This document shows positions 740 to 54,925 of a DNA stretch of 64,000 nucleotides, piece after piece. The notes beneath the pieces were generated by a model. That model was given only the letters and a program-made list of their open reading frames with translations, was not told the DNA's origin and did not search any database. The DNA comes from Candidatus Enterousia sp. (GTDB lineage: Bacteria; Pseudomonadota; Alphaproteobacteria; Rs-D84). The position numbers were made by a program, and so were the translations under genes. The stretch lies in contig JAZRSO010000004.1 of NCBI GenBank assembly GCA_045651525.1, forward strand, positions 17,127-81,126. The letters are read 5' to 3'. Positions within the stretch are counted from its first letter, which is position 1. Each line of letters starts with the position of its first letter.

Positions 740-749
740 TGTTTTTGCC

Positions 750-1256: not shown

Positions 1257-1261
1257 TATGA

Positions 1262-1762: not shown

Positions 1763-1766
1763 ATTT

Positions 1767-2087: not shown

Positions 2088-2101
2088 ACTTGTCACCTTT
2101 T

Positions 2102-2344
2102 TTATTTTGTGTGTTGATAGTTCGCGCAGTGCGTAACATGTATTCTTGCGCGTGCAATTGCAAGTAAACGTGTGCTTGATGCTGCGGGTTGTTCTATGTC
2201 GTCTATATCTATATAGGTTTTTAATAGTTTTTGATTGACTGTTGGGTAGTATTCGGGTGTCCAAGACAGCAAGTTTCTGTGTGTGCCAAATGCACAATGG
2301 AGTTCACAACCGTCACAATAATTTTCGTTTATTTTGATATCCAT
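2102..2344 (-). CDS. Small Cys-rich protein, paralog 5 (80 aa, one YCDGCELHC block, ending in HCANYQHTK). It is the first gene of the array.
   Basis: The ATG is at 2344. An AAAGGA Shine-Dalgarno sequence sits 8 nt upstream, and a near-consensus promoter lies immediately upstream. Confidence 0.5.
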   Translation of the reverse strand: MDIKINENYCDGCELHCAFGTHRNLLSWTPEYYPTVNQKLLKTYIDIDDIEQPAASSTRLLAIARARIHVTHCANYQHTK

Positions 2345-3145: not shown

Positions 3146-3376
3146 AAAATTCTTTGTACTTTTATTATGTGATGTGTTATAATTCACAGGTCAACGGGTG
3201 TTTGTTGACTGGGTTTAGCGACCCATTGGTAAGCGTCATGTAAAGACGTAAAAACTTATTCCAACCATTGGTTGGAGTGTGTGAATATATTGAATAAGCA
3301 CGCAATTCTTACTATTGTCGCTAAACTCCAACCACTCGTACAATAAAATACGGTGGTTTTTGTTTTGGGGGATGTG

Positions 3377-4174
3377 GTGAGGTATTTACTAACGATTTTT
3401 GTTATTTGTTATGCCAATGGTGCGATTGCTGCCCTACCCGATATTGTGTTGTGTGATGGGGGATTTCCAGTAATGAATGCGGTGTCAGAAACGTCTGTGT
3501 CCGAAACTGGCGAAGAAATTATTACGCCAATTGTTGAGTATTCTTGTCAACCGTATTCGCAGGGAATTTGTCCGACATCATATGTTTCGTATGATGTTTC
3601 AGGGTTGTTTCCAACAGATATGGATGGAAATTGTAATTCTGAAAAAATTCGTAAAGTCCCGTCACATGGTGGGTTTGTTGCGTCGGGATTTCCGGTAACA
3701 TTGTGCGATAATGGGTATTTTGATGGTGTCGCGTGTGTGCCTTATTCGGAGGCTTCGGAAAATTGTCCGACGGGTTATTTCAAGGCGTTTGCTAATAAAT
3801 CTGTACAACGCGTTTATGGAGAATGTCCGGATAAAACGGTATTGTTTTCCAATGAAAATATTGCAGTTTGGACATATCCGTATGATGATAATGTGGATGC
3901 AGATATCGTGTTGCGTTTATGTGATACTGGTTACGATATGAATTATTTGGGCGAGTGTGCAGCACTGTGTTCGGTTTCAAATACAGGTGTAAAAACGCAA
4001 TATTTACGTACGGATACTGGATTGAGTTTTCCTGTTTATAGCAAAAAATTAACGGTTCCGTCGTTGAATGTCAAGACAGGTAATCGTCGTTGTTATGTGA
4101 ATATGATTCCTGGTGGTGGCCTAAATGCAATAAATATCACGAGTGAAGATACGACTTATAGGGTTGTGTATTAA
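3377..4174 (+). CDS. Secreted Cys-rich hypothetical protein with CxxGY-type Cys repeats.
   Basis: The ORF spans 3353..4174 and begins with a GTG. The GTG at 3377 follows a GGGGGA Shine-Dalgarno sequence and gives a clean signal peptide (MRYLLTIFVICYANGAIAA). The protein contains motifs such as CDNGYFDGVAC and CPTGYF. Confidence 0.55.
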   Translation: MRYLLTIFVICYANGAIAALPDIVLCDGGFPVMNAVSETSVSETGEEIITPIVEYSCQPYSQGICPTSYVSYDVSGLFPTDMDGNCNSEKIRKVPSHGGFVASGFPVTLCDNGYFDGVACVPYSEASENCPTGYFKAFANKSVQRVYGECPDKTVLFSNENIAVWTYPYDDNVDADIVLRLCDTGYDMNYLGECAALCSVSNTGVKTQYLRTDTGLSFPVYSKKLTVPSLNVKTGNRRCYVNMIPGGGLNAINITSEDTTYRVVY

Positions 4175-4192
4175 ATGTATGGAGAAAGTGTA

Positions 4193-4663
4193 ATGCGTTG
4201 TATATTTTTTTCTTTGTTATTATCGTTATTTATTCTGGTGGACGCATGGTGTGCATTATGTCAGAGTAATTTTTCTGTATTAGTTACATTGGACAAAGAT
4301 TCTGGTAATACAGTAAAATATAGCACTCCTCAAATTGATGGCATGAATTGGCGTATAGATGTGGATTATGACACGATGACTTCGATAAATGGTACGTTTC
4401 GTTTTTTGCGTGGGGTTGCGTCATGTAGTGAATATGTTGGAAATTCACAATATGCGTTTGTTACGGGTTATCAAGTAACACCGGCGGATGATGTTGGGAT
4501 TTATTGTTGGTGTGCATTACGTCGGCCTGCGACCACGTATTTTATGTTTTTGCAGGCGTATAATAGTGTGGATGCGTGTGTGGCAGATTGTGCTGCGCAA
4601 TGTGCGAATGGTGTTCGTTCAAGTTATTTATTTAGAGATCATTTGTTTGAGGGGGTATGGTAA
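4193..4663 (+). CDS. Secreted Cys-rich protein of the CWC...CVxDCAxxC family.
   Basis: A GGAG Shine-Dalgarno sequence sits 8 nt before the ATG at 4193. The signal peptide is MRCIFFSLLLSLFILVDA. The core reads SCSEY...YCWCALRR...DACVADCAAQCANG and is shared with 4663..5154 and 27098..28309. Confidence 0.6.
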   Translation: MRCIFFSLLLSLFILVDAWCALCQSNFSVLVTLDKDSGNTVKYSTPQIDGMNWRIDVDYDTMTSINGTFRFLRGVASCSEYVGNSQYAFVTGYQVTPADDVGIYCWCALRRPATTYFMFLQAYNSVDACVADCAAQCANGVRSSYLFRDHLFEGVW

Positions 4664-5154
4664 TGAAATTATATTTATGTCTTTTTTTGTGTTTGTTTAC
4701 AATTGGTGCTGGTGCTGTAACATTTTGTGTAAAGCCAGATGTTATTGCGCTGGGTATAAGCTCGTTAAAAATCCCAACGGTAACATCGTATTCTGGGTTT
4801 GATTGGTCGGCATATGTACCAGAATTTGGTACGATACATGGTATTTCGTCTTGTAGTGATAAAGGTGGTGATAACTCTGTAAATTTGCATGGCTGTCGTA
4901 TCGGTAGTTATTGGGGGCATGTTGCTGCAAAGGGTGAAGATGTAAATAATAATTATTATGGTCGTGCTGATGGAAAAAGTTGTTGGTGTAAAATGACGCA
5001 TCCTGTTGAGTCGGGTTGGATTTTGGTTCATATATATACAGATGTGTGTGTATCAGATTGTGCAAAAAATTGTGGAAATTATTTAAAAAGCACTAGTCCC
5101 GATCACGCTAGTACACTTCGTTGTATGTTAGCGACTGTAGGTTTGGAGGAGTGA
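4663..5154 (+). CDS. Secreted Cys-rich protein of the CWC...CVxDCAxxC family, adjacent paralog.
   Basis: A TAATG stop/start overlap joins it to the upstream gene. The signal peptide is MKLYLCLFLCLFTIGAGA. The core reads GISSCSD...SCWCKMTHP...DVCVSDCAKNCGNY. Confidence 0.6.
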   Translation: MKLYLCLFLCLFTIGAGAVTFCVKPDVIALGISSLKIPTVTSYSGFDWSAYVPEFGTIHGISSCSDKGGDNSVNLHGCRIGSYWGHVAAKGEDVNNNYYGRADGKSCWCKMTHPVESGWILVHIYTDVCVSDCAKNCGNYLKSTSPDHASTLRCMLATVGLEE

Positions 5155-5237: not shown

Positions 5238-7634
5238 ATGGCAGACGATATTAAAAAAATTCATGAACGCGAGGCAAAATGGCAAAAACGTTGGAATGAT
5301 GAACGTGCATTTGTGCCAAAAAACGATGGTTCAAAACCAAAATATTATAATTTGATTGAATTCCCATTCCCAAGTGGTTCTGGTTTGCACGTCGGTCATA
5401 TGTTGCCATATACAGGTATGGATGTTCTGGCACGCTTTCGTCGTATGCGTGGGTTCGATGTATTGTATCCTATTGGTTATGATTCAATGGGTATTTCGTC
5501 TGAAAATTATGCAACCAAAATTGGCAAGCACCCAAGCGAATCTGTCGCAGAACTGATTAAAATTTTTGAACGTGATATTTCAATAATGGGTTTGTCTTTT
5601 AATCCTGAATCCAAACTGTCAACATCTGATCCTGAATTTATCAAGTGGACACAATGGATGTTTATTCAATTTTACAAGGCAGGTTTGGCGTATAAATCAG
5701 AACTGCCGATGAATTGGTGTCCGAATTGCAAAACCAATCTGACCAATGAAGAACTGGAAGATGGTAAATGTGAACGCTGTCATGGGCCTGTTGAAAAGAA
5801 AATGAAGTTACAGTGGAACTTGGCAATCACAAAATATGCAGACAGATTGATTGATGATTTAGCGTTGGTTGACTATCCAGAACGCGTTAAAACAGAACAA
5901 ATAAACTGGATTGGTCGTTCGCATGGCGCAGACGTCAATTTCCAGGTTGGCGATGATGTTATGACTGTTTATACAACGCGTATTGATACAATATTTGGTG
6001 TGACGTTCTGTGTATTGGCGCCTGAACATGCGTTGGTCAAAAAATGGCTGAATGCGGGCAAGATTAAAAATACAGATGATGTGAACGAATATATCGCTGC
6101 GGCACGTGCCAAGACTGAAATTGAACGTACAGATGTTACACGTGAAAAAACAGGTGTTCGTTTAGATGGTGTTATGGCGACAAATCCGTTTAACGGGCGT
6201 GAAATTCCAATCTTTATTTCTGACTATGTTCTGGCAGATTATGGATTTGGGGCGATTATGGCGGTGCCTGCACACGATGGCCGTGACTGGGATTTTGCGA
6301 AAAAGTTTGGTCTGGATATCATCCCTGTTCTGTCGGGCGGTGAAGAAGGTAAAGTCTGGGAAGGCGATGGTGCGCATATAAACTCTGGCTTTTTGGATGG
6401 TATGGGCAAAGAAGACGCCATTGTGGCCGCGATTAAATACGGTACAGAACACGGCTTTGCGCGTGGTACAACCAAGTATAAATTGAAAGACTGGGGATTT
6501 TCGCGTCAGATGTACTGGGGCGAACCAATTCCAATGGTTTATTGCGAAAAGTGCGGTTGGGTGCCTGTGCCGGAATCTGAACTGCCATTGTTACAACCAT
6601 ATATGTCAGACTATAAACCAACAGATGATGGCGAAGGTCCATTGGCACGTGCCACAGATTGGGTAAATACAACCTGTCCACATTGTGGCGGTGCAGCAAA
6701 GCGTGAAACAGACACTATGCCCCAGTGGGCTGGGTCTTCGTGGTATTTCTTGCGCTATTTAGATTCAAAGAATAATAACGAATTCTGTGCGCGTGAAATG
6801 TTGGATAAATGGATGCCGGTTGACCACTATAACGGTGGTATGGAACATACAACACGTCATGTTCTGTATTCCAGATTCTGGTACAAGGTATTATCTGATT
6901 TGGGCTTTGTTCCAGGTGTTGAACCATATAAAAAGCGTACCAGTAATGGTCTGATTATGGCAGCAGATGGTACAAAAATGTCTAAGTCGCGTAATAACAC
7001 AGTGCCCAGTTCGGATGTTGTTGCACGCAGTGGCGCAGACGCATGTCGTATGACAATCTTGTACCTGGGGCCATGGGAACAAAGTGCAAACTGGTCCGAA
7101 GATACACTGCGTGGTGTTGAACGTTTCTTGAAACGTGTGGAAAATCTGGCGGATAATTTGACAGACGAACCAATGACTGCAGATCAAGAACGCTTGCAAC
7201 ATAAACTGATTGCAGATGCAACAAATCGTTTGGAAGATATGAAGTTCAACACGACAATATCTGCGATGATGGAATATATCAATGCGTTCGGTGGTAAAAT
7301 GCCCCGCCCTGCGTACGAAACATTGTTGCAAGTATTGAACCCATTTTCGCCACATTTAACCGAAGAAATGTGGGAAAAACTGGGGCATGCTGATATGCTG
7401 GTGTTTGAACCGTGGCCAACATTTGATGCGGCAAAACTGGTTGAAACACAGATGACAATCGTTGCGTCGGTCAATGGAAAACGCGCGACAGAATTTGTTG
7501 TCGCAGCTGATGCGGATGAAAATACCATTATCGAAGCGGCGCGTGTCGCAGCTGGCGCAAAATTGGATGGTTGTGAAATTGTTAAAACAATCGTTGTACC
7601 AAAAAAACTGGTGAACTTTGTTGTGAAAAAATAA
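5238..7634 (+). CDS. leuS: Leucyl-tRNA synthetase.
   Basis: Class I HIGH motif (HVGHMLPYTGMDVLARFRRMRGF) and KMSKS motif, with LeuS-type editing and anticodon-binding regions. Confidence 0.95.
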   Translation: MADDIKKIHEREAKWQKRWNDERAFVPKNDGSKPKYYNLIEFPFPSGSGLHVGHMLPYTGMDVLARFRRMRGFDVLYPIGYDSMGISSENYATKIGKHPSESVAELIKIFERDISIMGLSFNPESKLSTSDPEFIKWTQWMFIQFYKAGLAYKSELPMNWCPNCKTNLTNEELEDGKCERCHGPVEKKMKLQWNLAITKYADRLIDDLALVDYPERVKTEQINWIGRSHGADVNFQVGDDVMTVYTTRIDTIFGVTFCVLAPEHALVKKWLNAGKIKNTDDVNEYIAAARAKTEIERTDVTREKTGVRLDGVMATNPFNGREIPIFISDYVLADYGFGAIMAVPAHDGRDWDFAKKFGLDIIPVLSGGEEGKVWEGDGAHINSGFLDGMGKEDAIVAAIKYGTEHGFARGTTKYKLKDWGFSRQMYWGEPIPMVYCEKCGWVPVPESELPLLQPYMSDYKPTDDGEGPLARATDWVNTTCPHCGGAAKRETDTMPQWAGSSWYFLRYLDSKNNNEFCAREMLDKWMPVDHYNGGMEHTTRHVLYSRFWYKVLSDLGFVPGVEPYKKRTSNGLIMAADGTKMSKSRNNTVPSSDVVARSGADACRMTILYLGPWEQSANWSEDTLRGVERFLKRVENLADNLTDEPMTADQERLQHKLIADATNRLEDMKFNTTISAMMEYINAFGGKMPRPAYETLLQVLNPFSPHLTEEMWEKLGHADMLVFEPWPTFDAAKLVETQMTIVASVNGKRATEFVVAADADENTIIEAARVAAGAKLDGCEIVKTIVVPKKLVNFVVKK

Positions 7635-7645
7635 GGTAACCGTTT

Positions 7646-8473
7646 ATGCCGGAAGAATATATCAGCAGTTTTGGTTGTTTTGATGGTATGATTGCAAGAC
7701 GGTTGTTACGGCGTGGACCAGAAGAGATTAGCCGTATTTATGATAATCCGTCACCATTGGTGCGTGCGATTGTAGAGCACAGATGGGCGCAAGAGCCTGA
7801 TGTTAAATTGGCACTGCAATTAAATCGAATATTGCGATATGCAAAATATATCGGTCCCCAAAAATATAAACAAATAAGAACCGAAATGTTGGCGGCAATC
7901 AAGGAAGGTAGTAATGGGGATATGACGGGCTATCGTGAGTTTGTAAAATTGATAGATAATCCACAAATCGGCGAACAGTATAATAATTTTCTTTCGGAAT
8001 TGCTTGAAAAAAGCCCAAAGACAAAAGCAGTTATTTTAAAACTGGGTAAGCGTAATGAAGAATTAATAAAATTCGGTTTGGATTATCGTGTAGATTATAT
8101 CGCAAACGATTCTAAGTTTTTTGATACAGTTAATACACAGGCGATATTTTTGTGGGCGTTTTGTAGACGCGGTTTTGAATTGAAATTCAAGTGCTTTTTG
8201 ATGCGGATGCGACTAAAAAATGACGAGGCAAGACTGGCGTGTATTAAGTTTTTGTTGCCAGATTATGAAAATATTATCGAAGTGTATCAAAGGAATTTTA
8301 ACGAGCGTCAGAAAATTTGTGATGAAGCTTCTAAGGTTTATCAGGGTGCTGTTAAGGATGTTAGGGATTTGTATCAACAAACAGAAAAAGATATTGATGA
8401 AAAATACCAAGGCATTGCAAGATATAAAGAACTGATAAGAACAAAACAATTACAGCCGTTTAAAAAGAAATAA
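7646..8473 (+). CDS. Hypothetical protein of 275 aa with no signal peptide. It occupies the position after leuS where lptE/holA are often found.
   Basis: It is a clean ORF starting at an ATG 12 nt after the leuS stop and ends at a conserved terminator. No recognizable motif was found. Confidence 0.5.
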   Translation: MPEEYISSFGCFDGMIARRLLRRGPEEISRIYDNPSPLVRAIVEHRWAQEPDVKLALQLNRILRYAKYIGPQKYKQIRTEMLAAIKEGSNGDMTGYREFVKLIDNPQIGEQYNNFLSELLEKSPKTKAVILKLGKRNEELIKFGLDYRVDYIANDSKFFDTVNTQAIFLWAFCRRGFELKFKCFLMRMRLKNDEARLACIKFLLPDYENIIEVYQRNFNERQKICDEASKVYQGAVKDVRDLYQQTEKDIDEKYQGIARYKELIRTKQLQPFKKK

Positions 8474-8500
8474 AAAAATCCCCAAACGGGGATTTTTTTA
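8471..8500. terminator. Bidirectional Rho-independent terminator of the ATCCCC/GGGGAT family.
   Basis: The sequence aaaaaaATCCCCaaacGGGGATttttttt lies between the convergent stops at 8473 (+) and 8498 (-). Confidence 0.7.
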
Positions 8501-9355
8501 AATGCTGTCAGCGTTTACCCAACGGCCGTCTTTTAATAAACCAGGGGCCATGCCTTCGGTTGAACGCAATGCGTCAATTACACTGCGTGCTTTTTGCGCG
8601 TCCAGATTGATAATGCGAACTTTGAATAAATCGCCTTCGTTTACAACGGCTGTTTCGCCATAAACCTTCATACGGTTTGCCAGTGCATCTGCGCTGTCTT
8701 GGGCGTAAAATGCAGCCAACTGAATGCTGTATGGACCTGATACAGGTGCTGCAACAGTTTCAGTTGCGACAGGTGTTGGTTCTGCGACGACTGTTGTGCC
8801 CAATGTTGCGTTTTTAACAGTGTTTGATTGATCGGCCAAAACCTGGACTTGAACCTTGCCCTGACCTTTCAGACCGATTTGTGCAGCAGCCGCAGATGAC
8901 AAATCGATTAAACGTGAGTTTACATATGGGCCACGGTTGTTGATACGAACAATAACAGATTGACCGTTGTCCAGGTTTGTTACCTGTGCGATTGTTGGTA
9001 ATGGCAATGTTTTGCTGGTCGCCAGCATTTGGTTGCTGTCGAATGTTTCGCCATTGCTGGTCTTTTTGCCATCCAAGTCTGCCGGGATAACACCAGCAAC
9101 ACCTGTTTGATTAAATGTCATATCTTCGGCAGGAATATATTGTACACCTTCAACCTGATATGCGGAACCGATAAAGTATTTTGGACCCGCCGCCAGTAAG
9201 TATGCGTTGTTTAAGTTTTCTGTTGCAGGTGCAGCCATCAATGGTTCTTCGCCAAATGCGTCTGGACCGTATGTGGCGCTGCTGCTGGTTCTGCTGAGGT
9301 CTGTACAACCCGCCAATATTGCGGTCAGTGCCGCCAAAGAGATAAGTTTTTTCAT
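8498..9355 (-). CDS. rlpA: Septal ring lytic transglycosylase RlpA. It is a lipoprotein with a DPBB domain and a C-terminal SPOR domain.
   Basis: The lipobox is LAGCTD. The DPBB core reads TSNGETFDSNQMLATSKTLPLPT..VRINNRGPYV. A SPOR-like C-terminus is present. An AAGGAG Shine-Dalgarno sequence precedes the start. Confidence 0.85.
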   Translation of the reverse strand: MKKLISLAALTAILAGCTDLSRTSSSATYGPDAFGEEPLMAAPATENLNNAYLLAAGPKYFIGSAYQVEGVQYIPAEDMTFNQTGVAGVIPADLDGKKTSNGETFDSNQMLATSKTLPLPTIAQVTNLDNGQSVIVRINNRGPYVNSRLIDLSSAAAAQIGLKGQGKVQVQVLADQSNTVKNATLGTTVVAEPTPVATETVAAPVSGPYSIQLAAFYAQDSADALANRMKVYGETAVVNEGDLFKVRIINLDAQKARSVIDALRSTEGMAPGLLKDGRWVNADSI

Positions 9356-11914: not shown

Positions 11915-11945
11915 CCCGACCGTCATTTCTGTGACGGTTTTTGTT
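11915..11945 (+). terminator. Terminator or attenuator hairpin immediately upstream of the secreted protein gene start.
   Basis: GACCGTCAtttctgTGACGGTttttgtttt ends 13 nt before the ATG at 11958. Confidence 0.5.
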
Positions 11946-11957
11946 TTGGGAAAAATC

Positions 11958-12902
11958 ATGCGTAAATTATTGGTTGTTTTATTTGTCTGTATTGTGTTTT
12001 GCGCAAATGCACGTGTGTTGCATGTGGACGATAATGTAATAAAACTGTCACAAACAAAAACAACCGACCCCGCCCTGCACGTCCGTATTGGTGATGAATT
12101 ATGGTATGGGAATATGGGGCGCTGTACACTTCCTATGAACGAAAGCACAGACAAAGAATTAAAAGTAAGATACAATGATACAGATTATTGGGTGTCAGAT
12201 CATACAGGTTATATTATCCAAGATGGAAAATTAACAGATGTATTATGTAATGTGTATTTAATGGGGACAGGGACACAATTGATCGATACATTGCACGTAC
12301 CAACGCTGGTCACACGCAGTGAATTAGAATTAAAATTTTCTGATGACAATAAAAAATCAGATGGACGTGTTATTTTTTTTGGAATCTATGATTTTTATGA
12401 TACAAAATCGTCTTATGGGCTAAATTTTGGTGCGGGCGGACAATATTATGGTATCTATCCATGGATTTGTGCATTTAATGGCGAAGGTGGACCGTCTTGG
12501 TGCAGAAGTTTTGGAAGTCTTAATATTTCACAAAAATTAAAAACAACCAAACAACTGGTTGTTTTAGATGCAAAAAATAATTATGTACAATACGGGAATC
12601 AAACTAAAGTGCTACAAGGTCGTAAAACCACTGAAAAAGAATCTGTTATATTGTTTGGGGGGCGTTATACAGATAAAAATAATAATAAAAAATTGCTCGC
12701 TTATCAGCAAACAGATGCTATGTACATATATTCCACCAAGATATACGAAGATGACGTTCTTGTTCGGCATTTTGTGCCGGTGCCATGTGGGTTAAAAATT
12801 GGGGATTTTGTTGTGCCATCTAATGGCATGTGGGATATTGTAGAACAAAAATTTTATGGCAACATTGGAACTGGTGATTTTATTTATGGCGTGGATAAGT
12901 AA
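11958..12902 (+). CDS. Secreted hypothetical protein of 314 aa.
   Basis: The ATG at 11958 gives the signal peptide MRKLLVVLFVCIVFCANA. No recognizable domain was found. A conserved terminator lies downstream. Confidence 0.6.
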   Translation: MRKLLVVLFVCIVFCANARVLHVDDNVIKLSQTKTTDPALHVRIGDELWYGNMGRCTLPMNESTDKELKVRYNDTDYWVSDHTGYIIQDGKLTDVLCNVYLMGTGTQLIDTLHVPTLVTRSELELKFSDDNKKSDGRVIFFGIYDFYDTKSSYGLNFGAGGQYYGIYPWICAFNGEGGPSWCRSFGSLNISQKLKTTKQLVVLDAKNNYVQYGNQTKVLQGRKTTEKESVILFGGRYTDKNNNKKLLAYQQTDAMYIYSTKIYEDDVLVRHFVPVPCGLKIGDFVVPSNGMWDIVEQKFYGNIGTGDFIYGVDK

Positions 12903-24701: not shown

Positions 24702-26858
24702 ATGGTAAACGAGAGAGAGAATTTAAATCAATCATTGAAAGCAACTGATTTTAATATCGGTGGCGATGTTTTTCGTGCCTATTACGACCCAAATGGTCAA
24801 TTGTTGTTTGTTGTTGATTATCTGATAACAGATATTAAACCAAATGTTTTGCTGGTTATAAATCCAGATGGTGAACGTAAATGGGATGATATCTTGGAAA
24901 ATGACTATGGCGTTGATTTGGAAACTGTTCGGCCTAAAAAAGATAACAAATATCAAAAACTGGATATCGAATATTCTGGGCTGGATTTGTATGACGATTT
25001 AATCCGCGCTTATCTTGATGGTTCAGATACGGCCGCACAGGCACATAAATTAAACGAATTTAGAAAGATTTCTGTGGCGCGTTCTGCACAAGAAAGACTG
25101 AACGATGCGATGAAGACAACAGAAAATGCCAGCGATACAATCGATAAAACAAATGAAAAAATCTATCAATTACAACAAACGATTCGTGACTTGAAAAATA
25201 AACTGACTGTGGCACGTCGCGCAATCGGCAAAGAACCAACAAAACAATCAGCGTCAAAGATATTGCGTCTGGAATCTTTGATTGATATGAACGAAGAAAA
25301 ATTAAAACGTGCAAAAAAACGTCTGGTAAACGCACAGCGTCGCTTGGAAAATGCTGGCGATGATGTTGTTGCTGCACAGGGTTTGTTGGCAAGGCTGAAT
25401 AAAAATCTGCCCGCACGCCCATTAAATACAGGTGTTGCAACGGTGGCGGATGTTCCTGTGCCGGCAATCGTTGATGATGACGAAGACGATGACGATGATT
25501 TTGAAACTGAATTTGAAAATGAAACAAAGGCAGAAGATATGGCTGATGAAGATGTAAAACCGTTGTTTGATACTGATCCAAATATTTTGGACGAAGAAAT
25601 CGCGTTTAAACCAATCGAATTTAATAACGATGTACCACAAAATGTACCTGCTGTGGCGCCTGAAAATAATTTGATTGTCAGTGATGTTGCAGAACCTGCG
25701 CCTGTTGTAGATAATTCTTTTGTGCCAAGTTTTGCAGAAGAAACAGTAACAGAAGAAACTGTACCGGCGCCATTGTCTTTTGCGCCACCGTCATCGTTTG
25801 AAACGGTTGAAACGCCAGTCTTGTCATCAGAAGACGATACAATTAAACCGATGTTTGATGGTTTTACATCGTTTCCAGAAATGGAAGAACAGGAAACAGA
25901 AACAACAACTTGGACGCCAACACCGATTGTTCAAGAAGAAAGACCTGTCCAAGATGTTTTGGCGCCTGTGACACCATCTGTGACTGCGGATTCAATGCCA
26001 GATGTTGCCCCTGCTCCAATTTCATCGGATTTTCGCCCTGTGTCACCAATTCATAACGAAAATATGGATCTAAAGCCTGTGGTAACACCTGTGTCTGATG
26101 CTGGTTCCGCACAGGGCAAGCCAACATTGTTGTATTATGTGTTGCTGATTGTGCTGATTGCGATGTCAATATTTACACTGTGGTTTTATCAAAAGTCTTC
26201 TAATGAAAATATGCCAGAATTAGCGGCATCAACAGAACCTGCGCCGGCGGTTGTCGAAGAAGAACCTGTGGTCGCAGAACCAGAAACCGAAGTTGTTGTT
26301 GAAGATGTAATTCCAGAACCGGTGATGGTAACAGAACCTGAGCCAGAACCTGTGACAGAACCAGACCCTGAAATTACTCCAGAACCAGTACCTGTGACAG
26401 AACCAGAATCTGAAATTATCCCAGAACCTGAAATAATTCCAGAGCCTGTACCTGTTACAACAGAACCTGTGGTTGAAAATCCATTTGTTGATTTGCCTGC
26501 TGGTGCGATTGTTGGGCCTGTGGCGGATGTGATTCCAGAACCAGAACCTGTTATCGTTCCAACCGAAGAAGAAGTGCTTGCGACTAAACCCGCGTATGGT
26601 GTGTCACAACAGGAAAAAATGTTCGTTGCAGATGATAATTATGAAACAGAAACGGTTGTTGAATCTGTTGAACCAACAATTATTCGTGCGCCACAAGATA
26701 CAGAACAAGTTGTCGTAGAAGAATCGGTTGATGTATGTTCTGATGGCAATGCACCAGACAGTTATGGTTGCTGTAACGGCGAAGAATTTGTTTTGTTACC
26801 CGATGGCGAACAGGCCTGTTGCGCAGAGAGTACGGGTGAATGTTTCCCACCCATGTAA
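24702..26858 (+). CDS. Large acidic membrane-anchored protein of 718 aa. It has an N-terminal coiled coil, a D/E-rich region, a mid-protein TM segment, PEPxP repeats and a Cys-rich C-terminus.
   Basis: A GGGGGA Shine-Dalgarno sequence precedes the start. The D/E-rich stretch reads DDDEDDDDDFETEFENE. The TM segment is LLYYVLLIVLIAMSIFTLWFY. The repeats read PEPVPVTEPESEIIPEPEIIPEPVPVT. The C-terminus reads CSDGNAPDSYGCCNGEE...CCAESTGEC. Confidence 0.6.
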   Translation: MVNERENLNQSLKATDFNIGGDVFRAYYDPNGQLLFVVDYLITDIKPNVLLVINPDGERKWDDILENDYGVDLETVRPKKDNKYQKLDIEYSGLDLYDDLIRAYLDGSDTAAQAHKLNEFRKISVARSAQERLNDAMKTTENASDTIDKTNEKIYQLQQTIRDLKNKLTVARRAIGKEPTKQSASKILRLESLIDMNEEKLKRAKKRLVNAQRRLENAGDDVVAAQGLLARLNKNLPARPLNTGVATVADVPVPAIVDDDEDDDDDFETEFENETKAEDMADEDVKPLFDTDPNILDEEIAFKPIEFNNDVPQNVPAVAPENNLIVSDVAEPAPVVDNSFVPSFAEETVTEETVPAPLSFAPPSSFETVETPVLSSEDDTIKPMFDGFTSFPEMEEQETETTTWTPTPIVQEERPVQDVLAPVTPSVTADSMPDVAPAPISSDFRPVSPIHNENMDLKPVVTPVSDAGSAQGKPTLLYYVLLIVLIAMSIFTLWFYQKSSNENMPELAASTEPAPAVVEEEPVVAEPETEVVVEDVIPEPVMVTEPEPEPVTEPDPEITPEPVPVTEPESEIIPEPEIIPEPVPVTTEPVVENPFVDLPAGAIVGPVADVIPEPEPVIVPTEEEVLATKPAYGVSQQEKMFVADDNYETETVVESVEPTIIRAPQDTEQVVVEESVDVCSDGNAPDSYGCCNGEEFVLLPDGEQACCAESTGECFPPM

Positions 26859-26900
26859 ATAAATTAAATATAATGGCATATCTATAAACAAACCCACAAC

Positions 26901-27074
26901 CTCATGTAACTTCTGTACACTACGGTTGTGGGTTTGTTCATATCTATACCATTCTATTTAATTTCTTCGCTAAGTGTGGGTGGTGGTGGCGCCCCTCATG
27001 TAACTTCTGTACACTATGGTTGTGGGTTTGTTCATATCTATACCATTATATTTAATTTCTTCGCAAAGTGTGGG
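26901..27074. repeat. Tandem direct repeat of two copies, each 94 bp and about 93% identical, with a flanking 13-bp stem hairpin.
   Basis: Copy 1 is 26901..26994 and copy 2 is 26995..27074. Both read ctcatgtaacttctgtacactayggttgtgggtttgttcatatctataccattmtatttaatttcttcgcwaagtgtggg. The stem CAAACCCACAACC (26889-26901) pairs with GGTTGTGGGTTTG (26924-26936). Confidence 0.8.
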
Positions 27075-27097
27075 CGATGTGGTATAATAAAGATAAT

Positions 27098-28309
27098 ATG
27101 TTTAAAATAAATCGAGTGTTTTTATTCGTATTTGTTTGCACAAAGGCAATTGCAGTTTGCCCAAATGGTTATCATAGTAATACGATTGATATTTCAAAAC
27201 TTAGTTCGGAAGAAAAAGGCATTTGGCAAGCCTCGGTCGCTACTTATACGCACTATTCATATACATCACAAGGATTAAAAACACGATGCGAGGGGTATGA
27301 TAACAGAATTGCAGGTGGTTGGTTTGGAACAGATGAAGGCGGTACATGCATTGATTGTCGATTTGATAATATGAAACATGGTGATTGGTATATAGAATTT
27401 GATTCTGAGAAAAGCGGTTTTTCAACTTTGCGTGGAACTAGTGCATGTATATCAACTTCCTATGCGTCTGGTGTTGGGGTTGGGCAGCCGTCAGATAGCG
27501 TTAATCCATCGCCAGGTGAACGTTCTGGCAGCAGTTGTTGGTGTAAGTTGTTGTCAATTGATGAAATTGCGGTTGATTCAAGATGGTTATATGATGGTTC
27601 TAATGGTCATTGGCCTTCGAGTACTTGTGTGCAAGAATGTGCGCAGACATGTGCGTCAGAAATAAGAAATTTATCAAATAAAATGTTAAAATCGATGTTT
27701 GCTTATACAAAAAAATCAGTTGTTAGTGGGTGTACTGCTAATAATCAAGAGATATATAATATTACATATGATTTAGCAGGTGGGCAGAATTACAAAGATG
27801 CACCTTTTTGTTATAAAATAACGTCTGGTGACATTGTTTTTGGACAGCCTGTTAAATCTGGTGAAGTTTTTGCATATTGGAAAAATGATAAAAACAAGGT
27901 GATTGATTCTATTGTACAGGGACAGACAGGAGATATTCATTTAATCGCTCAGTGGAGGTCAAATTTATTATGTCCTGCGGGACAATATTTATTTGATGGT
28001 TTGTGTGTGAATGTTGGTGCTGGTTTTTATTCGCCGGCAGATGATAATCTACGCTATCAATGTCCAAATAATTTGACGACACGTGGATATGGTTTTGCGT
28101 CAGATGAACTTGGCGACTGTGGCTATAAACTGCATGTCGGAAAGCAACAAATATTTTTACGCAGTCAGAAAAATACAAGCCCATCATTTTGTGCAAAAAT
28201 AAATAACAAGGTATTTTATGGTTCTATGACTAGTAACGATAAATGTGCGTTGTGTACGAAATATAAAGGTGTTAATTACTCTATACATGATGATTCTATG
28301 TACGATTAA
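27098..28309 (+). CDS. Secreted Cys-rich multidomain protein. It combines a CWC...CVxECAxxC core, a segment resembling the Listeria-Bacteroides (InlB B-repeat / Flg_new) repeat, and CxxGY-type Cys repeats.
   Basis: The signal peptide is MFKINRVFLFVFVCTKAIAVC. The core reads GTSACIS...SSCWCKLLS...STCVQECAQTCASE. The Flg_new-like stretch reads YNITYDLAGGQNYKDAPFCYKITSGDIVFGQPVKSGEVFAYWKND...IHLIAQW. The Cys repeats read LCPAGQYLFDGLCVNVGAGFY..CPNNLTTRGYGF. Confidence 0.65.
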   Translation: MFKINRVFLFVFVCTKAIAVCPNGYHSNTIDISKLSSEEKGIWQASVATYTHYSYTSQGLKTRCEGYDNRIAGGWFGTDEGGTCIDCRFDNMKHGDWYIEFDSEKSGFSTLRGTSACISTSYASGVGVGQPSDSVNPSPGERSGSSCWCKLLSIDEIAVDSRWLYDGSNGHWPSSTCVQECAQTCASEIRNLSNKMLKSMFAYTKKSVVSGCTANNQEIYNITYDLAGGQNYKDAPFCYKITSGDIVFGQPVKSGEVFAYWKNDKNKVIDSIVQGQTGDIHLIAQWRSNLLCPAGQYLFDGLCVNVGAGFYSPADDNLRYQCPNNLTTRGYGFASDELGDCGYKLHVGKQQIFLRSQKNTSPSFCAKINNKVFYGSMTSNDKCALCTKYKGVNYSIHDDSMYD

Positions 28310-28340
28310 TAAAAAATCCCCCGTTTGGGGGATTTTTTAT
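28310..28340. terminator. Bidirectional terminator of the ATCCCCC-gtttg-GGGGGAT type.
   Basis: aaaaaATCCCCCgtttGGGGGATtttttat is nearly identical to the hairpin at 63969..64000. The thyA stop lies in its T-run. Confidence 0.75.
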
Positions 28341-49812: not shown

Positions 49813-51111
49813 ATGAGAAAAAGTGTTTGTTTTGCGGTATTAATGACTTTGTTGGGAACAAATAATTTGTTCGCTGCTCAGCGTTCCGATGGTGCAATTT
49901 TTCGTGATAAATGGAAAGTTGAAAGCTTTAATAATGAATGGACCTGTAAAGGTTGTATTACAGATACTGGAATTAATGTTAGAACAAGTAGTTATACGTA
50001 TTTTAATACCGATATGGGTAGTTATGGAAATTATGGTGCTGTTTACTATGTTGCACATGAAATGGTTGAAGGTGGTGCAAAGTTTTGTAAAACAATAATT
50101 GCGGCAGATCGTGGCAATTGCCATGGTAACCCATATACTACATATTATAAATCTGGTGACGATTGTTTTTGGTTATGTGAATCTGGTTATCATGGTGCGG
50201 GGTGTGCCAAGGTTAATGATGGCGCGGCTGATACATGTCAATCGTTTGAGCGGTTTGTAGAACATACACCCAAAACACATTTGAGTTCTTATACCCCTAG
50301 CACAGATATTGATACAACGATACCAATGTTTTATTATGGGGTATATAAATCCTGTTCGGGAAACAACATGTCATGTTTAAATTCAAGTAAGGGACAAGAG
50401 CATGATGTTGTGCTGGCAATTAGCGAAATAAAAAAGGACACATCAGATTCTTCTTTAGAAATTTATGCTCAACCTTTGGTGGTACGTGCTGGTGGGACTA
50501 GCCAATGTTTGTATGGTGGACAGTACCATGCGTGGCCGTTTTTTTTATGGGTATCAGACTCAGAATTATTATGTCCAGAGGGTTGGGTGCATAAAAATGG
50601 AAAATGTGTGGTAGATGACGCGTCTGAGGCATGTCATTTGGCGAATTTATGTGGTGGTTTTCCAAAGGAAAAATTCGACCCTAAAATATATTATACAAAA
50701 AAGTCTATTATCGATAACTGCTATGAATATCGTTGTAATAGTGGTACGGCATTTACATCCAAGGATGATTTGACGTGTACGCCATGTGCACCGGCCGATG
50801 CCGAAATTCCAGAATTGTATTATGTGCCTAATGATGGGCTATGCCATTCTTGTAACAAGGGAAAATGGCCTGTTGCACTAACACAAACTGTGGAAAATAA
50901 AGAAGTTCCTAGTGGTGAGTACGATTGTAAGGACGCAAAACCATTTACACATAATGAATTGCAATATGGACAAAAAACTGTTCCAGATACGGTTACAGTT
51001 AATCAATGTTGGACCAAGCAAAATCCTGATGATTTCTTTGGTTGTGTGACAGGCAAGTGTTCAAATGGTAAATCGTGGACAAAAGATGGCGATTGTGAGG
51101 GGGGGGAATAA
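49813..51111 (+). CDS. Secreted Cys-rich protein of 432 aa with CxxGY/CxxGW-type repeats.
   Basis: The signal peptide is MRKSVCFAVLMTLLGTNNLFA. Motifs include DDCFWLCESGYHGAGC and CPEGWVHKNGKC. The protein contains about 38 Cys. Confidence 0.6.
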   Translation: MRKSVCFAVLMTLLGTNNLFAAQRSDGAIFRDKWKVESFNNEWTCKGCITDTGINVRTSSYTYFNTDMGSYGNYGAVYYVAHEMVEGGAKFCKTIIAADRGNCHGNPYTTYYKSGDDCFWLCESGYHGAGCAKVNDGAADTCQSFERFVEHTPKTHLSSYTPSTDIDTTIPMFYYGVYKSCSGNNMSCLNSSKGQEHDVVLAISEIKKDTSDSSLEIYAQPLVVRAGGTSQCLYGGQYHAWPFFLWVSDSELLCPEGWVHKNGKCVVDDASEACHLANLCGGFPKEKFDPKIYYTKKSIIDNCYEYRCNSGTAFTSKDDLTCTPCAPADAEIPELYYVPNDGLCHSCNKGKWPVALTQTVENKEVPSGEYDCKDAKPFTHNELQYGQKTVPDTVTVNQCWTKQNPDDFFGCVTGKCSNGKSWTKDGDCEGGE

Positions 51112-51204
51112 TACCTAAATACCAATATTTGGGCAATGCTCAGGTTGCTACAAAATAATACTCTGATTGCCACTTTAAACAGTATGTATGTGGAACAAAA
51201 ATAA

Positions 51205-51232
51205 AAATCCCCGTTTTGGGGATTTTTTTACG
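51205..51232 (+). terminator. Terminator of the ATCCCC/GGGGAT type preceding the GC-rich repeat.
   Basis: aaaaATCCCCgttttGGGGATttttttacg. Confidence 0.6.
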
Positions 51233-51250
51233 CCCCCTTTATCACTCTTA

Positions 51251-51999
51251 CCGTCATACCTGCCTTTACCGTCATACCGGCGCAGGCCGGTATCCATTGC
51301 GTTCGTATTTCTTTGGCTTTGGTGGAATGCAGTGGACCCCGACCTGCGTCGGGGTGACGCCAGAATAAACCCTTTGTCACGCCTGCGCGGGAATGACAAA
51401 AGAGAACAAACCCACCCCGTCCGCTTCGCGGGCACCCCCCCCCGCAGGGGGCGGAACGCCCCGGCGACGGAGGGGAACTTACCACCGGTTTTAAGTTCTC
51501 CTCCCTGGGAGGAGTACGGCGCAGCCGGGAGGTGGGTTGCCCCTGCCCCCGTGTGGGGCGAGGAATAAATACCCCCCCCGTGGTGCCTGATGCACACCAC
51601 CCCTCCGTAGGAGGGGAATTTTACTCCCTGCCCCTTTTTTGTCACGCCTATCGTAGGCAGGAGTGGGACTATACAGTGTGAAAAAAAATTCGTCATACCG
51701 GCGTAGGCCGGTATCCATTGCGTTCGTATTTCTTTGGTTTTGGTGGAATACAGTGGGGACCGACCTGCGGGGGGGTGGCGGGGTAGTTGGATTTTTGTCA
51801 CGCCTGCGGGGGAATGACAAAAGAGAACAAACCCACCCCGTCCGCTTCGCGGCCACCCCTCCCCGCAGGGGGCGGAACGCCCCGGCGACGGAGGGGAACT
51901 TACCACCGGTTTTAAGTTCTCCTCCCTGGGAGGAGTACGGCGCAGCCGGGAGGTGGGTTGCCCCTGCCCCCTTTTTTTGTCATGCCTATCGTAGGCAGG
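51251..51999. repeat. GC-rich, hairpin-dense composite element duplicated in tandem. Copy A (about 51271-51691) carries an 86-bp insertion relative to copy B (about 51692-51999). It is a REP/RIME-like or structured-RNA candidate.
   Basis: The two copies are about 90% identical with a 421-bp period. Both start gtcataccggcGYAGgccggtatccattgcg. Internal palindromes include ATACCGGCgcagGCCGGTAT, CCCCGACctgcGTCGGGG, GGGGAACTTAccACCGGTttTAAGTTCTCC and CTCCTCCCtggGAGGAG. A long-range pair joins AAACCCACC and GGTGGGTT. Local GC is much higher than in the flanking sequence. Confidence 0.8.
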
Positions 52000-52074
52000 G
52001 GTGGGGAAAAGGTGCAAAGAAAGAATAAAAAAATATATTGGAATTGTGTTTGTTTGCTGTTATTATGCCAATGC

Positions 52075-54898: not shown

Positions 54899-54925
54899 AA
54901 CCCGCATTTCGCGGGTTTTGTTATT
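54897..54925. terminator. Bidirectional terminator.
   Basis: AAAACCCGCAtttcGCGGGTTTTgtta lies between the tatD stop and the convergent orphan gene stop. Confidence 0.65.

What the first reader, a model, noticed from the sequence alone, without database searches (positions are those of the whole stretch)
27098..28309. Multidomain secreted protein fuses the CWC core to a Listeria-Bacteroides-type repeat and GCC2/GCC3-like Cys repeats
After the signal peptide and the shared CWC...CVQECAQTC core, the protein contains YNITYDLAGGQNY...G.VFAYWKND...IHLIAQW. This matches the consensus of the Flg_new / InlB B-repeat domain, which is common in surface proteins of Firmicutes and Bacteroidetes and rare in Alphaproteobacteria. 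Then follow C-x-x-G-[QY]-Y...C...C-x-x-G-Y repeats like those of eukaryotic GCC2/GCC3 or furin-like modules. Such mosaic architecture is typical of horizontally assembled adhesins or effectors in host-associated bacteria.
Basis: partly seen in the sequence, partly recalled or inferred. Interest (0 to 1): 0.6.

Follow-up and report, generated by a model that had tools for sequence, protein, structure and literature searches.

The report
Modular secreted cysteine-rich surface protein
A small-genome gut bacterium (Candidatus Enterousia) encodes an exported, disulfide-rich protein built from four reusable modules, two of them undescribed, and its lineage recombines these modules into many small and giant proteins, probably for attaching to other cells.

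Summary
The ORF at 27098-28309 (+) is real. It encodes 403 aa, has orthologues (46-99% identity, dN/dS 0.16 against the Ca. Enterousia orthologue) and has its own promoter-like site and terminator. It has a signal peptide and four modules.

1. An N-terminal "CWC" domain with six invariant Cys. About 517 representative clusters carry it. There is no Pfam, NCBIfam or PDB sequence relative.
2. A divergent Flg_new / InlB B-repeat. Pfam gives 21 bits (gathering score 27), but it matches in all six family members. The family profile hits canonical repeats, and the AF2 model's best PDB matches are InlB B-repeats.
3. One degenerate Ephrin_rec_like (GCC2_GCC3) module, not repeats. It has 4 of 6 Cys and no direct HMM hit. 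It aligns column for column with modules in relatives that pass Pfam's threshold.
4. It also occurs at the N-terminus of window ORF 11931-12902.

All four modules recur in different orders in other proteins, including giants of 4,750-6,218 aa. Every source-named relative comes from an Alphaproteobacteria or Proteobacteria MAG. So the mosaic architecture is real but native to the lineage, and I found no evidence of recent foreign acquisition. The most likely role is a surface or extracellular binding protein of a partner-dependent bacterium. That role is inferred, not shown.

The parts
26900..27074 (+). 94-bp tandem duplication (1.9 copies) in the upstream intergenic region. The second copy runs into the promoter-like site.
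   Evidence: Tandem Repeats Finder: 96% matches, score 329. Sequence read. This stretch aligns poorly with the orthologous locus L002.
27060..27088 (+). Sigma-70-type promoter-like site: TTCGCA, 17 nt, TG-extended TATAAT. It lies 10 nt upstream of the ATG, which implies a very short leader.
   Evidence: Consensus scan, 10 of 12 matches. The count of such sites in the region is not above the shuffle expectation, so only its position supports it.
27098..28309 (+). Coding sequence, 403 aa plus stop.
   Evidence: ORF list. Five homologue clusters at 46-99% identity with 16 invariant Cys. dN/dS 0.16 against the L002 orthologue.
27098..27154 (+). Sec-type signal peptide (aa 1-19: MFKINRVFLFVFVCTKAIA, then VC). 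It has an AxA-type signal peptidase I site and no lipobox consensus.
   Evidence: Read from the sequence and from the orthologue alignment, where an A-x-A-like motif is followed by x-C in all members. No predictor was available, so this is an inference.
27155..27382 (+). N-terminal part of the CWC domain. It holds the first strand with Cys21, then a family-specific insertion (about aa 41-95) with Cys64, Cys84 and Cys87 and the motif WFGTDEGGTCxDCRFDN.
   Evidence: In 62 other CWC domains Cys21 is conserved in 36, while the Cys64, Cys84 and Cys87 columns are gaps in all, 46 and 40 of them. AF2 gives pLDDT 47-77 here.
27383..27712 (+). CWC domain core (aa 96-205). Cys117, Cys147, Cys149, Cys177, Cys181 and Cys185 are invariant. 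Trp97, Gly113 and Trp163 are nearly invariant.
   Evidence: An exhaustive profile search found 517 representative clusters at E<=1e-3. The six Cys are invariant in 62 of 62 diverse domains. The AF2 model places CWC on a strand (146-154) and CxxxCxxxC on a helix (177-190), with pLDDT 87-94. No Pfam, NCBIfam or PDB sequence match.
27746..27958 (+). Flg_new / Listeria-Bacteroides repeat (InlB B-repeat type) domain, aa 217-287. Cys238 probably pairs with linker Cys212.
   Evidence: Pfam PF09479, 21 bits, profile positions 1-65 of 65; it matches in all 6 orthologues. The orthologue-derived HMM hits canonical repeats at 1e-8 to 1e-13. Alignment A6 shows invariant Y, I, Y, GG, P, W, W. Foldseek's top PDB hits are InlB B-repeats, prob 0.97-0.98.
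27959..28120 (+). Single degenerate Ephrin_rec_like (GCC2_GCC3) / TNFR-type Cys-rich module, aa 288-341. It has Cys292, Cys303, Cys322 and Cys341. The third and fourth Cys of the six-Cys pattern are replaced (CVNV..FYS).
   Evidence: No direct Pfam hit. It is homologous, column for column, to modules that pass PF07699 in relatives: P0189 29.1 bits over positions 1-48 of 48, P0188 41.4 bits. The structural resemblance to the EphA2 CRD is weak, prob 0.2-0.3.
28121..28306 (+). Undescribed beta-rich 'tail' module, aa 342-403 (LHVG..FLRS.KNT.P...I....FYGSM....Y....Y.IHDDS), with six predicted strands.
   Evidence: An HMM built from 5 orthologues hits window ORF 11931-12902 at E=1e-13 and 15 other proteins. 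The profile search found 56 proteins. AF2 pLDDT is 84-93. No Pfam or PDB match. Unrelated to Flg_new: hhalign probability 0.1%.
28317..28340 (.). GC-rich hairpin with T-runs on both strands, which looks like a bidirectional intrinsic terminator shared with the convergent thyA gene.
   Evidence: Terminator scan found it on both strands.
4175..5154 (+). Two tandem stand-alone CWC-domain genes (162 and 165 aa, each with a signal peptide). They are paralogues of the N-terminal domain.
   Evidence: BLASTP. Broad CWC HMM gives 1e-26 and 2e-23.
3353..4174 (+). 273-aa secreted Cys-rich protein with CxxGY/F motifs and a weak tail-like C-terminus. It forms a three-gene cluster with the two CWC genes, and the cluster is conserved in L005.
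   Evidence: Translation. The tail HMM gives 8e-6 over part of the module only. The L005 cluster at 6786-8631 has the same order.
11931..12902 (+). 323-aa secreted protein with the tail module directly after its signal peptide, followed by an unrelated C-terminal domain. It lies downstream of bamD, which is where relatives L001 and L003 carry the four-module gene.
   Evidence: hmmsearch E=1e-13 with an HMM built without this protein. Context.

Best explanation
The gene encodes a Sec-exported, disulfide-stabilised extracellular protein of Candidatus Enterousia. This genus belongs to order Rs-D84 of the Alphaproteobacteria, which have genomes under 1 Mb and are thought to depend on partner organisms.

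The protein has four modules:
- a CWC domain, a beta-sheet with two helices and six invariant cysteines;
- a Flg_new / InlB-B-repeat domain;
- one four-cysteine Ephrin_rec_like module;
- a beta-rich tail module that always directly follows that kind of Cys module when both are present.

The lineage reuses the same four modules in many orders. They occur in small secreted proteins and in giant proteins of 4,750-6,218 aa, and one of these giants ends in an endonuclease I domain. The target is a compact member of this module kit.

I infer that it sits on or outside the cell surface. The CWC domain would act as the binding head, the Flg_new and Cys-rich modules as a rigid spacer, and the tail as a common docking or assembly module. 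The protein would serve contact with other cells or surfaces in the gut.

Shown: the gene is real and constrained, the four-module anatomy, the homology of each module, and the lineage-wide recombination of modules. Inferred: export, disulfide bonding, surface location, a binding or adhesion role, and the role of each module.
For: Gene reality:
- Orthologues have 16 invariant Cys.
- The gene is syntenic with an 88%-identical orthologue in a Ca. Enterousia MAG.
- dN/dS is 0.16.

Modules:
- CWC: 517 clusters and six invariant Cys in 62 of 62 domains.
- Flg_new.
- Ephrin_rec_like by transitive homology.
- Tail.
- AF2 model: mean pLDDT 82.8 and pTM 0.59, which is consistent with well-folded modules whose relative orientation is less certain.

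Recombination of modules:
- P0032: FLG..CYS-TAIL-CWC.
- P0157: CYS-TAIL-CWCx5.
- P0078: nine Flg_new repeats with CWC domains, ending in FLG-TAIL.
- P0006/P0155: CWCx4-FLG...TAIL-Endonuclease_1 (90 bits).

Biology:
- Tandemly repeated CWC domains inside giant proteins suit a structural or binding module.
- Rs-D84 genomes lack the TCA cycle, respiration and standard transporters, and are proposed to depend on partners and to interact with other cells through hypothetical membrane proteins (PMC12306168).
- A DsbA-family gene sits near a family member in L007.
- All source-named relatives come from Alphaproteobacteria or Proteobacteria MAGs.
Against: - There is no experimental or annotation-based functional evidence for any member.
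- No fold match was found for the CWC or tail modules. The more sensitive structure libraries could not be searched.
- No route across the outer membrane is evident. No secretion-system gene lies next to any family member examined, so the protein could remain periplasmic.
- The tail occurs at the N-terminus, internally or at the C-terminus. That fits a junction or assembly module but not a simple terminal anchor.
- Signal-peptide cleavage was read by eye only.
Confidence: 0.5

Rival explanations
1. It is a periplasmic or envelope-associated structural protein that is exported by Sec but not surface-exposed, for example one linked to outer-membrane biogenesis.
For: Only a Sec-type signal is visible, with no autotransporter, T1SS or sorting signal. 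In relatives L001 and L003-L006 the family gene lies directly downstream of bamD. In the window, that position holds another tail-module protein. Disulfide-rich proteins are compatible with the periplasm, and a DsbA-family gene lies nearby in L007.
Against: The same modules build proteins of 4,750-6,218 aa with many Flg_new repeats and a terminal nuclease domain. That architecture is typical of extracellular fibres. Flg_new and Ephrin_rec_like modules are extracellular in every characterised case (established knowledge of InlB and Eph receptors). The bamD adjacency is not kept in the window's own genome.
Confidence: 0.17
2. It is a secreted toxin, effector or antimicrobial. The disulfide-locked CWC domain would be the active part, and the other modules would target or deliver it.
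For: Stand-alone CWC proteins are small (about 150 aa), secreted, cysteine-stabilised and occur as tandem paralogues, which resembles many peptide toxins. A CxC strand followed by a CxxxC helix recalls cysteine-stabilised helix motifs (my inference).
Against: There is no match to any toxin family; the only such hit is a sub-threshold Ntox22 match at E=0.0076 on a relative's Cys-tail region. No immunity-like gene is consistently adjacent. Four to seven CWC copies in tandem within giant proteins fits a repeat scaffold better than a warhead.
Confidence: 0.13
3. This is the first reader's reading: a recently and horizontally assembled mosaic, with a Firmicutes/Bacteroidetes-type repeat and eukaryote-type Cys repeats grafted onto a native core.
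For: GC3 is 0.243, 2.2 SD below the window mean. Flg_new and Ephrin_rec_like are best known from other phyla and from eukaryotes (established knowledge). The 3' 290 nt are about 100% identical to L002, against 78-95% elsewhere, so recombination does act on this gene.
Against: Synonymous codon usage is typical (z +0.15), and other secreted-protein genes in the window share the low GC3 (0.241-0.288). The whole four-module architecture is conserved in orthologues down to 46% identity, so the fusion is old. Every module is widespread in CWC-bearing proteins, and all of those named by a source come from alphaproteobacterial MAGs. The nearest solved eukaryotic Ephrin-like proteins match only at E about 0.6-0.9.
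Confidence: 0.07
4. It is a prophage-derived receptor-binding or tail-fibre protein.
For: Flg_new domains are common in phage tail proteins, and the BFVD hits include tail proteins. The tail-module paralogue 11931-12902 has a C-terminal domain that, from memory, resembles fibre or lectin-like domains; I did not test this.
Against: The neighbours are housekeeping genes (thyA, trigger factor, rpsI/rplM), with no phage genes in the window or the related loci. The viral structure hits are weak and confined to the Flg_new and TNFR-like parts.
Confidence: 0.04

Closest known systems
Flg_new / Listeria-Bacteroides repeat (PF09479, TIGR02543); InlB B-repeat of Listeria monocytogenes (PDB 2y5p, 7nms)
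   Same: About 70 aa. The signature Y-x-I-x-Y..GG..P.K.G..F..W...L.A.W is present and covers the full length of the Pfam model. The predicted fold matches best to InlB B-repeats (prob 0.97-0.98, TM 0.59 normalised to 2y5p). It sits as an internal module in an exported multidomain protein.
   Different: It scores below both curated thresholds (21 vs 27 bits in Pfam, 14 vs 20.95 in TIGR02543). There is a single copy rather than an array. It carries an extra conserved Cys238, probably bonded to linker Cys212. The flanking domains are not LRR/GW but CWC and Ephrin-like modules.
Ephrin_rec_like (PF07699, formerly GCC2_GCC3) and related TNFR-type Cys-rich modules (EphA2 CRD, ELAPOR1, Chlamydomonas mastigoneme Mst1)
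   Same: The spacing C-x2-G-x-Y...C...G-x-G-x-Y...C-P...TT.G.G...DC is shared. The module aligns column for column with modules in relatives that pass PF07699 (27.8-41.4 bits) and also touch TNFR_c6, TNFR_ELAPOR1 and NCD3G. There are weak structural and sequence echoes of EphA2 CRD, ELAPOR1 and Mst1.
   Different: The target copy has four of the six cysteines, gives no HMM match and is single. It is bacterial, and it is fused directly (DC-G) to the tail module, which has no eukaryotic counterpart that I found.
Cysteine-stabilised helix / CS-alpha-beta motif of defensins and scorpion toxins (my own knowledge; a lead, not tested)
   Same: There is a CxC on a beta-strand and a CxxxC on a helix, all invariant, and this is the arrangement that pins a helix to a strand with two disulfides.
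   Different: The order in the sequence is reversed (CxC comes first). The domain is about 130 aa, not 30-50. There is a third helix Cys and a further strand Cys. Disulfide geometry could not be checked because no coordinates were available.
Giant modular surface proteins of reduced-genome, partner-dependent bacteria (for example Patescibacteria, as discussed in PMC12306168)
   Same: The lineage has a very small genome, lacks standard transporters and has a large repertoire of hypothetical exported proteins built from repeated modules. Relatives of the target reach 4,750-6,218 aa.
   Different: The target is a small four-module version. The module families (CWC, tail) are specific to these Alphaproteobacteria as far as the labelled hits show. 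No attachment has been observed for Enterousia.

Membership tests
Flg_new (PF09479) / List_Bact_rpt (TIGR02543) | HMM score at or above the curated threshold | tested here: not met
   Pfam gives 21 bits against a gathering score of 27, E=3.5e-4. TIGR02543 gives 14 bits against 20.95. All six orthologues match, best E=3.3e-5, none shown to pass.
Flg_new (PF09479) / List_Bact_rpt (TIGR02543) | Full-length match with the conserved signature residues | tested here: met
   Profile positions 1-65 of 65 are covered. Y, I, Y, GG, P, W and W are invariant in an alignment with canonical repeats from P0006, P0007 and P0078.
Flg_new (PF09479) / List_Bact_rpt (TIGR02543) | Homology to bona fide members by an independent profile | tested here: met
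   An HMM built only from the five orthologues hits repeats in P0078 (Pfam 345.6 bits), P0006 and P0007 at 1e-8 to 6e-13.
Flg_new (PF09479) / List_Bact_rpt (TIGR02543) | Fold of the InlB B-repeat | tested here: met
   The AF2 model has pLDDT 82-94 in aa 217-287. The seven best Foldseek PDB hits are InlB B-repeat entries, prob 0.93-0.98, TM 0.59 to 2y5p_D, though E is only 0.025-0.1 with the whole model as query.
Ephrin_rec_like / GCC2_GCC3 (PF07699) | HMM score at or above the gathering score (23.1 bits) | tested here: not met
   No match at E<=10 on the whole protein or on the isolated C-terminal regions of three family members.
Ephrin_rec_like / GCC2_GCC3 (PF07699) | Six-cysteine pattern (C..C-x2-C..C..C..C) | tested here: not met
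   Only Cys292, Cys303, Cys322 and Cys341 are present. The third and fourth positions are Val306 and Ser312 (alignment A5).
Ephrin_rec_like / GCC2_GCC3 (PF07699) | Homology to modules that are members | tested here: met
   The profile of the Cys+tail unit finds P0182-P0198 at E 1e-23 to 1e-27. These pass PF07699 at 27.8-41.4 bits. In P0189 the match covers positions 1-48 of 48 and lies exactly at the position of target aa 292-341.
Ephrin_rec_like / GCC2_GCC3 (PF07699) | Fold of the Eph receptor cysteine-rich domain | tested here: inconclusive
   EphA2 CRD, mastigoneme and ELAPOR1 appear only at prob 0.02-0.3 and E 0.35-2.5. The PDB profile search gives E 0.6-0.9.
CWC domain (family defined here; no public model) | Six invariant Cys (C...CWC...CxxxCxxxC) with conserved W, G, W | tested here: met
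   Target Cys117, 147, 149, 177, 181 and 185 align with Cys in 62 of 62 other domains. Trp97 is conserved in 58 of 62, Gly113 in 61 of 62 and Trp163 in 60 of 62. The broad CWC HMM gives 2e-28 on the target.
CWC domain (family defined here; no public model) | Known function or solved structure of any member | tested here: not met
   No Pfam hit, no NCBIfam hit, no PDB sequence hit and no Foldseek PDB hit on this part.
Bacterial lipoprotein | Lipobox [LVI][ASTVI][GAS]C at the end of the signal peptide | tested here: not met
   The four residues ending at the first mature-region Cys are IAVC, NALC, FAEC, YASC and GLTC in the family. None fits at all positions. An AxA signal peptidase I site precedes them. 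This was judged by eye only.

The most novel reading that the evidence does not exclude
The CWC, Flg_new, Ephrin-like and tail modules together form the cell-contact apparatus of partner-dependent Rs-D84 Alphaproteobacteria. The undescribed tail module would be a universal docking or assembly unit that mounts interchangeable heads on one surface structure; the heads are CWC domains, a lectin-like domain and a nuclease. The eukaryote-type Ephrin_rec_like modules would reflect interaction with gut protists, or ancient acquisition from them, since from my memory protist surface proteins are rich in that repeat. Under this reading the target would be a minimal, tractable member in which both new domains could be solved and their ligands found.
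Probability: 0.15. Interest if true: 0.7.

Novelty: new variant of a known kind. Interest (0 to 1): 0.42.

Why it matters
Candidatus Enterousia and the rest of order Rs-D84 are widespread, uncultured gut bacteria. Their genomes are under 1 Mb, and how they live is unknown. The only genomic study in the searched literature proposes dependence on partner cells through unidentified surface proteins.

This gene gives that idea a concrete set of domains. Two of them, the CWC domain (about 517 clusters) and the tail module, have no public model. Two known extracellular modules accompany them, and all four are combined in many arrangements.

The gene also shows that an Ephrin_rec_like/TNFR-type cysteine module is established in a bacterial lineage, including a four-cysteine derivative that current models miss.

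The target is small (403 aa) and contains one copy of each module. That makes it a practical construct for structure determination and ligand screening. The practical value is moderate until a function is shown.

Tried and rejected
- AF2 with the six orthologues alone gave pLDDT 41.6 and was unusable. It was replaced by a patchwork alignment of 87 rows.
- MAFFT pulled fragment ends to wrong places: the last Flg_new strand aligned onto NNKVFYGSM of the tail. Trimming fixed the CWC rows but not the Flg_new rows. I used A3 as it was, so coverage of the last Flg_new strand comes from orthologues only.
- The BFVD search gave only Flg_new and TNFR-like echoes.
- PDB profile searches for CWC and for Cys+tail found nothing significant.
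- NCBIfam found nothing beyond sub-threshold TIGR02543.
- I tested whether the tail is a divergent Flg_new and rejected it (hhalign prob 0.1%).
- I looked for a conserved secretion or partner gene next to family members and found only housekeeping neighbours.
- The lipoprotein reading is rejected because there is no lipobox.
- A Pfam SMK_beta_su hit (E=0.06) and a DUF7155 hit (E=1.4) are dismissed as noise.
- Literature searches for PF07699 in bacteria and for Rs-D84 found no description of these proteins.
Full report
**The object.** Window 27098-28309 (+) is an intact ORF of 403 codons. CWC lies at aa 147-149 (nt 27536) and CVQECAQTC at aa 177-185 (nt 27626). A sigma-70-like site (TTCGCA, 17 nt, TG-TATAAT) ends 10 nt before the ATG. 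A GC-rich hairpin with T-runs on both strands follows the stop codon and is shared with the convergent thyA gene. The gene therefore looks monocistronic.

**Homologues and organism.** The 5.8-billion-protein collection holds only five homologue clusters, at 46-99% identity. All have the same length and architecture, with 16 invariant cysteines. One genome hit, at 88% identity, is a MAG named Candidatus Enterousia sp. It has the same neighbours as the window: a 722-aa protein upstream, then thyA, trigger factor and rpsI/rplM downstream. So the window comes from that genus. NCBI lists it under Alphaproteobacteria incertae sedis, and the literature places it in order Rs-D84. Against that orthologue dN/dS is 0.16, compared with 0.03-0.05 for thyA, rpsI and rplM. 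The gene is real, constrained and faster-evolving than core genes.

**Signal peptide.** Residues 1-19 (MFKINRVFLFVFVCTKAIA) have the n-h-c layout, with an AxA-like site followed by x-Cys in all family members. The lipobox consensus is not met. This was read by eye because no predictor was available.

**Module 1, the CWC domain.** The window's ORFs 4175-4663 and 4657-5154 are genuine paralogues of this domain (BLASTP 2e-4 and 3e-6 against the target, 3e-10 between them). An exhaustive profile search of 1.84 billion cluster representatives found 517 clusters at E<=1e-3 and 35 at E<=1e-10.
- The domain occurs alone in exported proteins of about 150 aa, or in 2-7 copies in large proteins of up to 6,218 aa.
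- In 62 diverse copies the six cysteines matching target Cys117, 147, 149, 177, 181 and 185 are invariant. Trp97, Gly113 and Trp163 are nearly invariant.
- Target residues 41-95, which carry three further Cys, are an insertion peculiar to this small family.
- No Pfam model, NCBIfam model or PDB sequence matches the domain.
- With a deeper alignment, AF2 places CWC on a strand (146-154) and CxxxCxxxC on a helix (177-190) at pLDDT about 90. That arrangement suggests a helix pinned to a strand by disulfides.
- Every hit that carries a source name is from an Alphaproteobacteria or Proteobacteria MAG, and one is from Ca. Enterousia scatequi.

**Module 2, Flg_new.** Pfam PF09479 matches aa 220-285 across its whole length, but at 21 bits, below the gathering score of 27 (E=3.5e-4). 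TIGR02543 is also sub-threshold. Four further lines of evidence support the assignment:
- All six family members match.
- An HMM built only from the orthologues finds canonical repeats in P0006, P0007 and P0078 at 1e-8 to 6e-13. P0078 scores 345.6 bits in Pfam.
- The joint alignment keeps the signature Y-I-Y, GG, P, W, W.
- The seven best PDB matches of the AF2 model are InlB B-repeat entries, prob 0.93-0.98, TM 0.59 to 2y5p.

I accept it as a divergent Flg_new domain. Flg_new is not exceptional in this lineage, since it appears in several CWC-bearing proteins and in neighbours of family members.

**Module 3, the Cys-rich stretch.** PF07699 (Ephrin_rec_like, formerly GCC2_GCC3) gives no match, even on the isolated C-terminal regions of three family members. 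However, a profile of the C-terminal region (A4) retrieved 56 proteins, mostly exported proteins of 130-240 aa. Eight of them pass PF07699 at 27.8-41.4 bits and also touch TNFR_c6, TNFR_ELAPOR1 and NCD3G. In P0189 the PF07699 match spans the full model and is the module lying directly before the motif GRILHIG, which is exactly where target aa 292-341 lies. The two align column for column. The target type keeps the first, second, fifth and sixth cysteines and has Val and Ser at the third and fourth (CVNV..FYS). Loss of both together is consistent with loss of one disulfide. Structural support is weak: EphA2 CRD scores prob 0.2-0.3, and ELAPOR1 and mastigoneme score E 0.6-0.9 by sequence profile.

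**Module 4, the tail.** The last 62 residues (LHVG..FLRS.KNT.P...FYGSM...Y.IHDDS) form a separate module with six predicted strands at pLDDT 84-93.
- An HMM built from five orthologues hits window ORF 11931-12902 at E=1e-13, directly after that protein's signal peptide.
- It also hits 15 CWC-bearing proteins.
- It has no Pfam or PDB match and is unrelated to Flg_new.
- When a Cys module is present, the tail follows it without a linker (DC-G).
- It can be C-terminal (target, P0025, P0078), N-terminal (window 11931-12902, P0069, P0090) or internal, before CWC repeats or before an Endonuclease_1 domain (P0157, P0006/P0155).

**Mosaicism.** The four modules recur in many orders: P0032 is FLG..CYS-TAIL-CWC, P0157 is CYS-TAIL-CWCx5, P0078 is FLGx9 with CWC ending in FLG-TAIL, and P0006 is CWCx4-FLG...TAIL-nuclease. 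The loci are also unstable. Relatives L001 and L003-L006 carry the four-module gene next to bamD, whereas the window has a tail-plus-other-domain gene there. A cluster of one Cys-rich/tail gene and two CWC genes beside leuS in the window and in L005 is replaced by a CWC-Flg_new gene in L003.

**Foreign origin?** The target's GC is 0.365 (z -1.4) and its GC3 is 0.243 (z -2.2). However, the other exported Cys-rich genes in the window have similar GC3 (0.241-0.288), and synonymous codon usage is typical (z +0.15). The architecture is conserved down to 46% identity. I find no sign of recent acquisition. An ancient origin of the Ephrin-like module from eukaryotes cannot be tested with what was available.

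**Function.** Nothing is known experimentally. Four observations point towards a surface or extracellular binding protein used in contact with other cells:
- the modules are of extracellular type;
- CWC domains repeat inside giant proteins;
- one such giant carries a nuclease;
- Rs-D84 bacteria have genomes under 1 Mb, lack the TCA cycle, respiration and standard transporters, and are proposed to live off partners (PMC12306168).

I rate this reading at about 0.5. The main rivals are a periplasmic or envelope role (no route across the outer membrane is visible, and there is the bamD adjacency) and a secreted toxin or effector role.

**Verdict.** This is a compact member of a lineage-specific family of modular exported proteins that contains two undescribed domain families. 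It is interesting for domain discovery and for the biology of an uncultured gut lineage, but no function has been shown.

Noticed in passing
window 28024-28323 against L002: The last ~290 nt of the gene and the terminator are about 100% identical to the Ca. Enterousia MAG locus, while the rest of the gene is 78-95% identical. dS is 0 in the tail codons against 0.2-0.85 in the other modules. This looks like a recent recombination tract.
   Followed up: partly
window 26900-27074: A 94-bp unit is duplicated in tandem (1.9 copies, 96% matches) between the upstream gene and the target. The first copy is preceded by a 14-bp inverted repeat (ACAAACCCACAACC ... GGTTGTGGGTTTGT). The region aligns poorly with L002.
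   Followed up: partly
window 239-2297 (-): Four tandem ORFs (212, 177, 166 and 176 aa) each carry two CxGCxxxC motifs (CNGCNRRC, CHGCECKC and similar). They have no Pfam match above threshold. This looks like another lineage-specific tandem paralogue family.
   Followed up: partly
window 24702-26858 (+): A 718-aa protein lies immediately upstream and is syntenic in L002. Its N-terminal region has weak, sub-threshold Pfam matches of coiled-coil type. It also has a central hydrophobic helix, long acidic Pro/Glu-rich PEPEP-like repeats and a C-terminal Cys-rich end (CSDGNAPDSYGCCNGEEF...CCAESTGEC). It has no significant Pfam family, and dN/dS is 0.11.
   Followed up: partly
window 11931-12902 (+): A 323-aa exported protein has the tail module at its N-terminus and an unrelated ~220-aa C-terminal domain ending ...RHFVPVPCGLKIGDFVVPSNGMWDIVEQKFYGNIGTGDFIYG. 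From memory this resembles lectin or fibre-like domains of gut phage and bacterial proteins. It has no Pfam or NCBIfam hit.
   Followed up: partly
P0006/P0155/P0156 (metagenomic relatives, not in the window): Giant 4,750-aa proteins combine CWCx4-5, Flg_new repeats and the tail module. In the 622-aa cluster member P0155 they end in an Endonuclease I domain (PF04231, 90 bits). This suggests a surface-tethered nuclease in a lineage that may scavenge nucleotides.
   Followed up: partly
window 3353-5154 and L005 6786-8631; L003 14195-15340: A three-gene cluster (a Cys-rich protein with a tail-like end, then two stand-alone CWC genes) lies between tlyA/ftsJ-like and leuS. It is conserved in L005 but replaced in L003 by one 381-aa CWC + Flg_new gene, so this is a variable surface-protein locus.
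   Followed up: partly
window 54921-55376 (-): A 151-aa Lys/Asn-rich ORF has GC 0.272, which is 4.2 SD below the window's gene mean and makes it the strongest compositional outlier in the window.
   Followed up: no
window 50000-53000: GC rises to 0.47-0.48 over about 2 kb, against about 0.41 elsewhere. I did not examine it.
   Followed up: no
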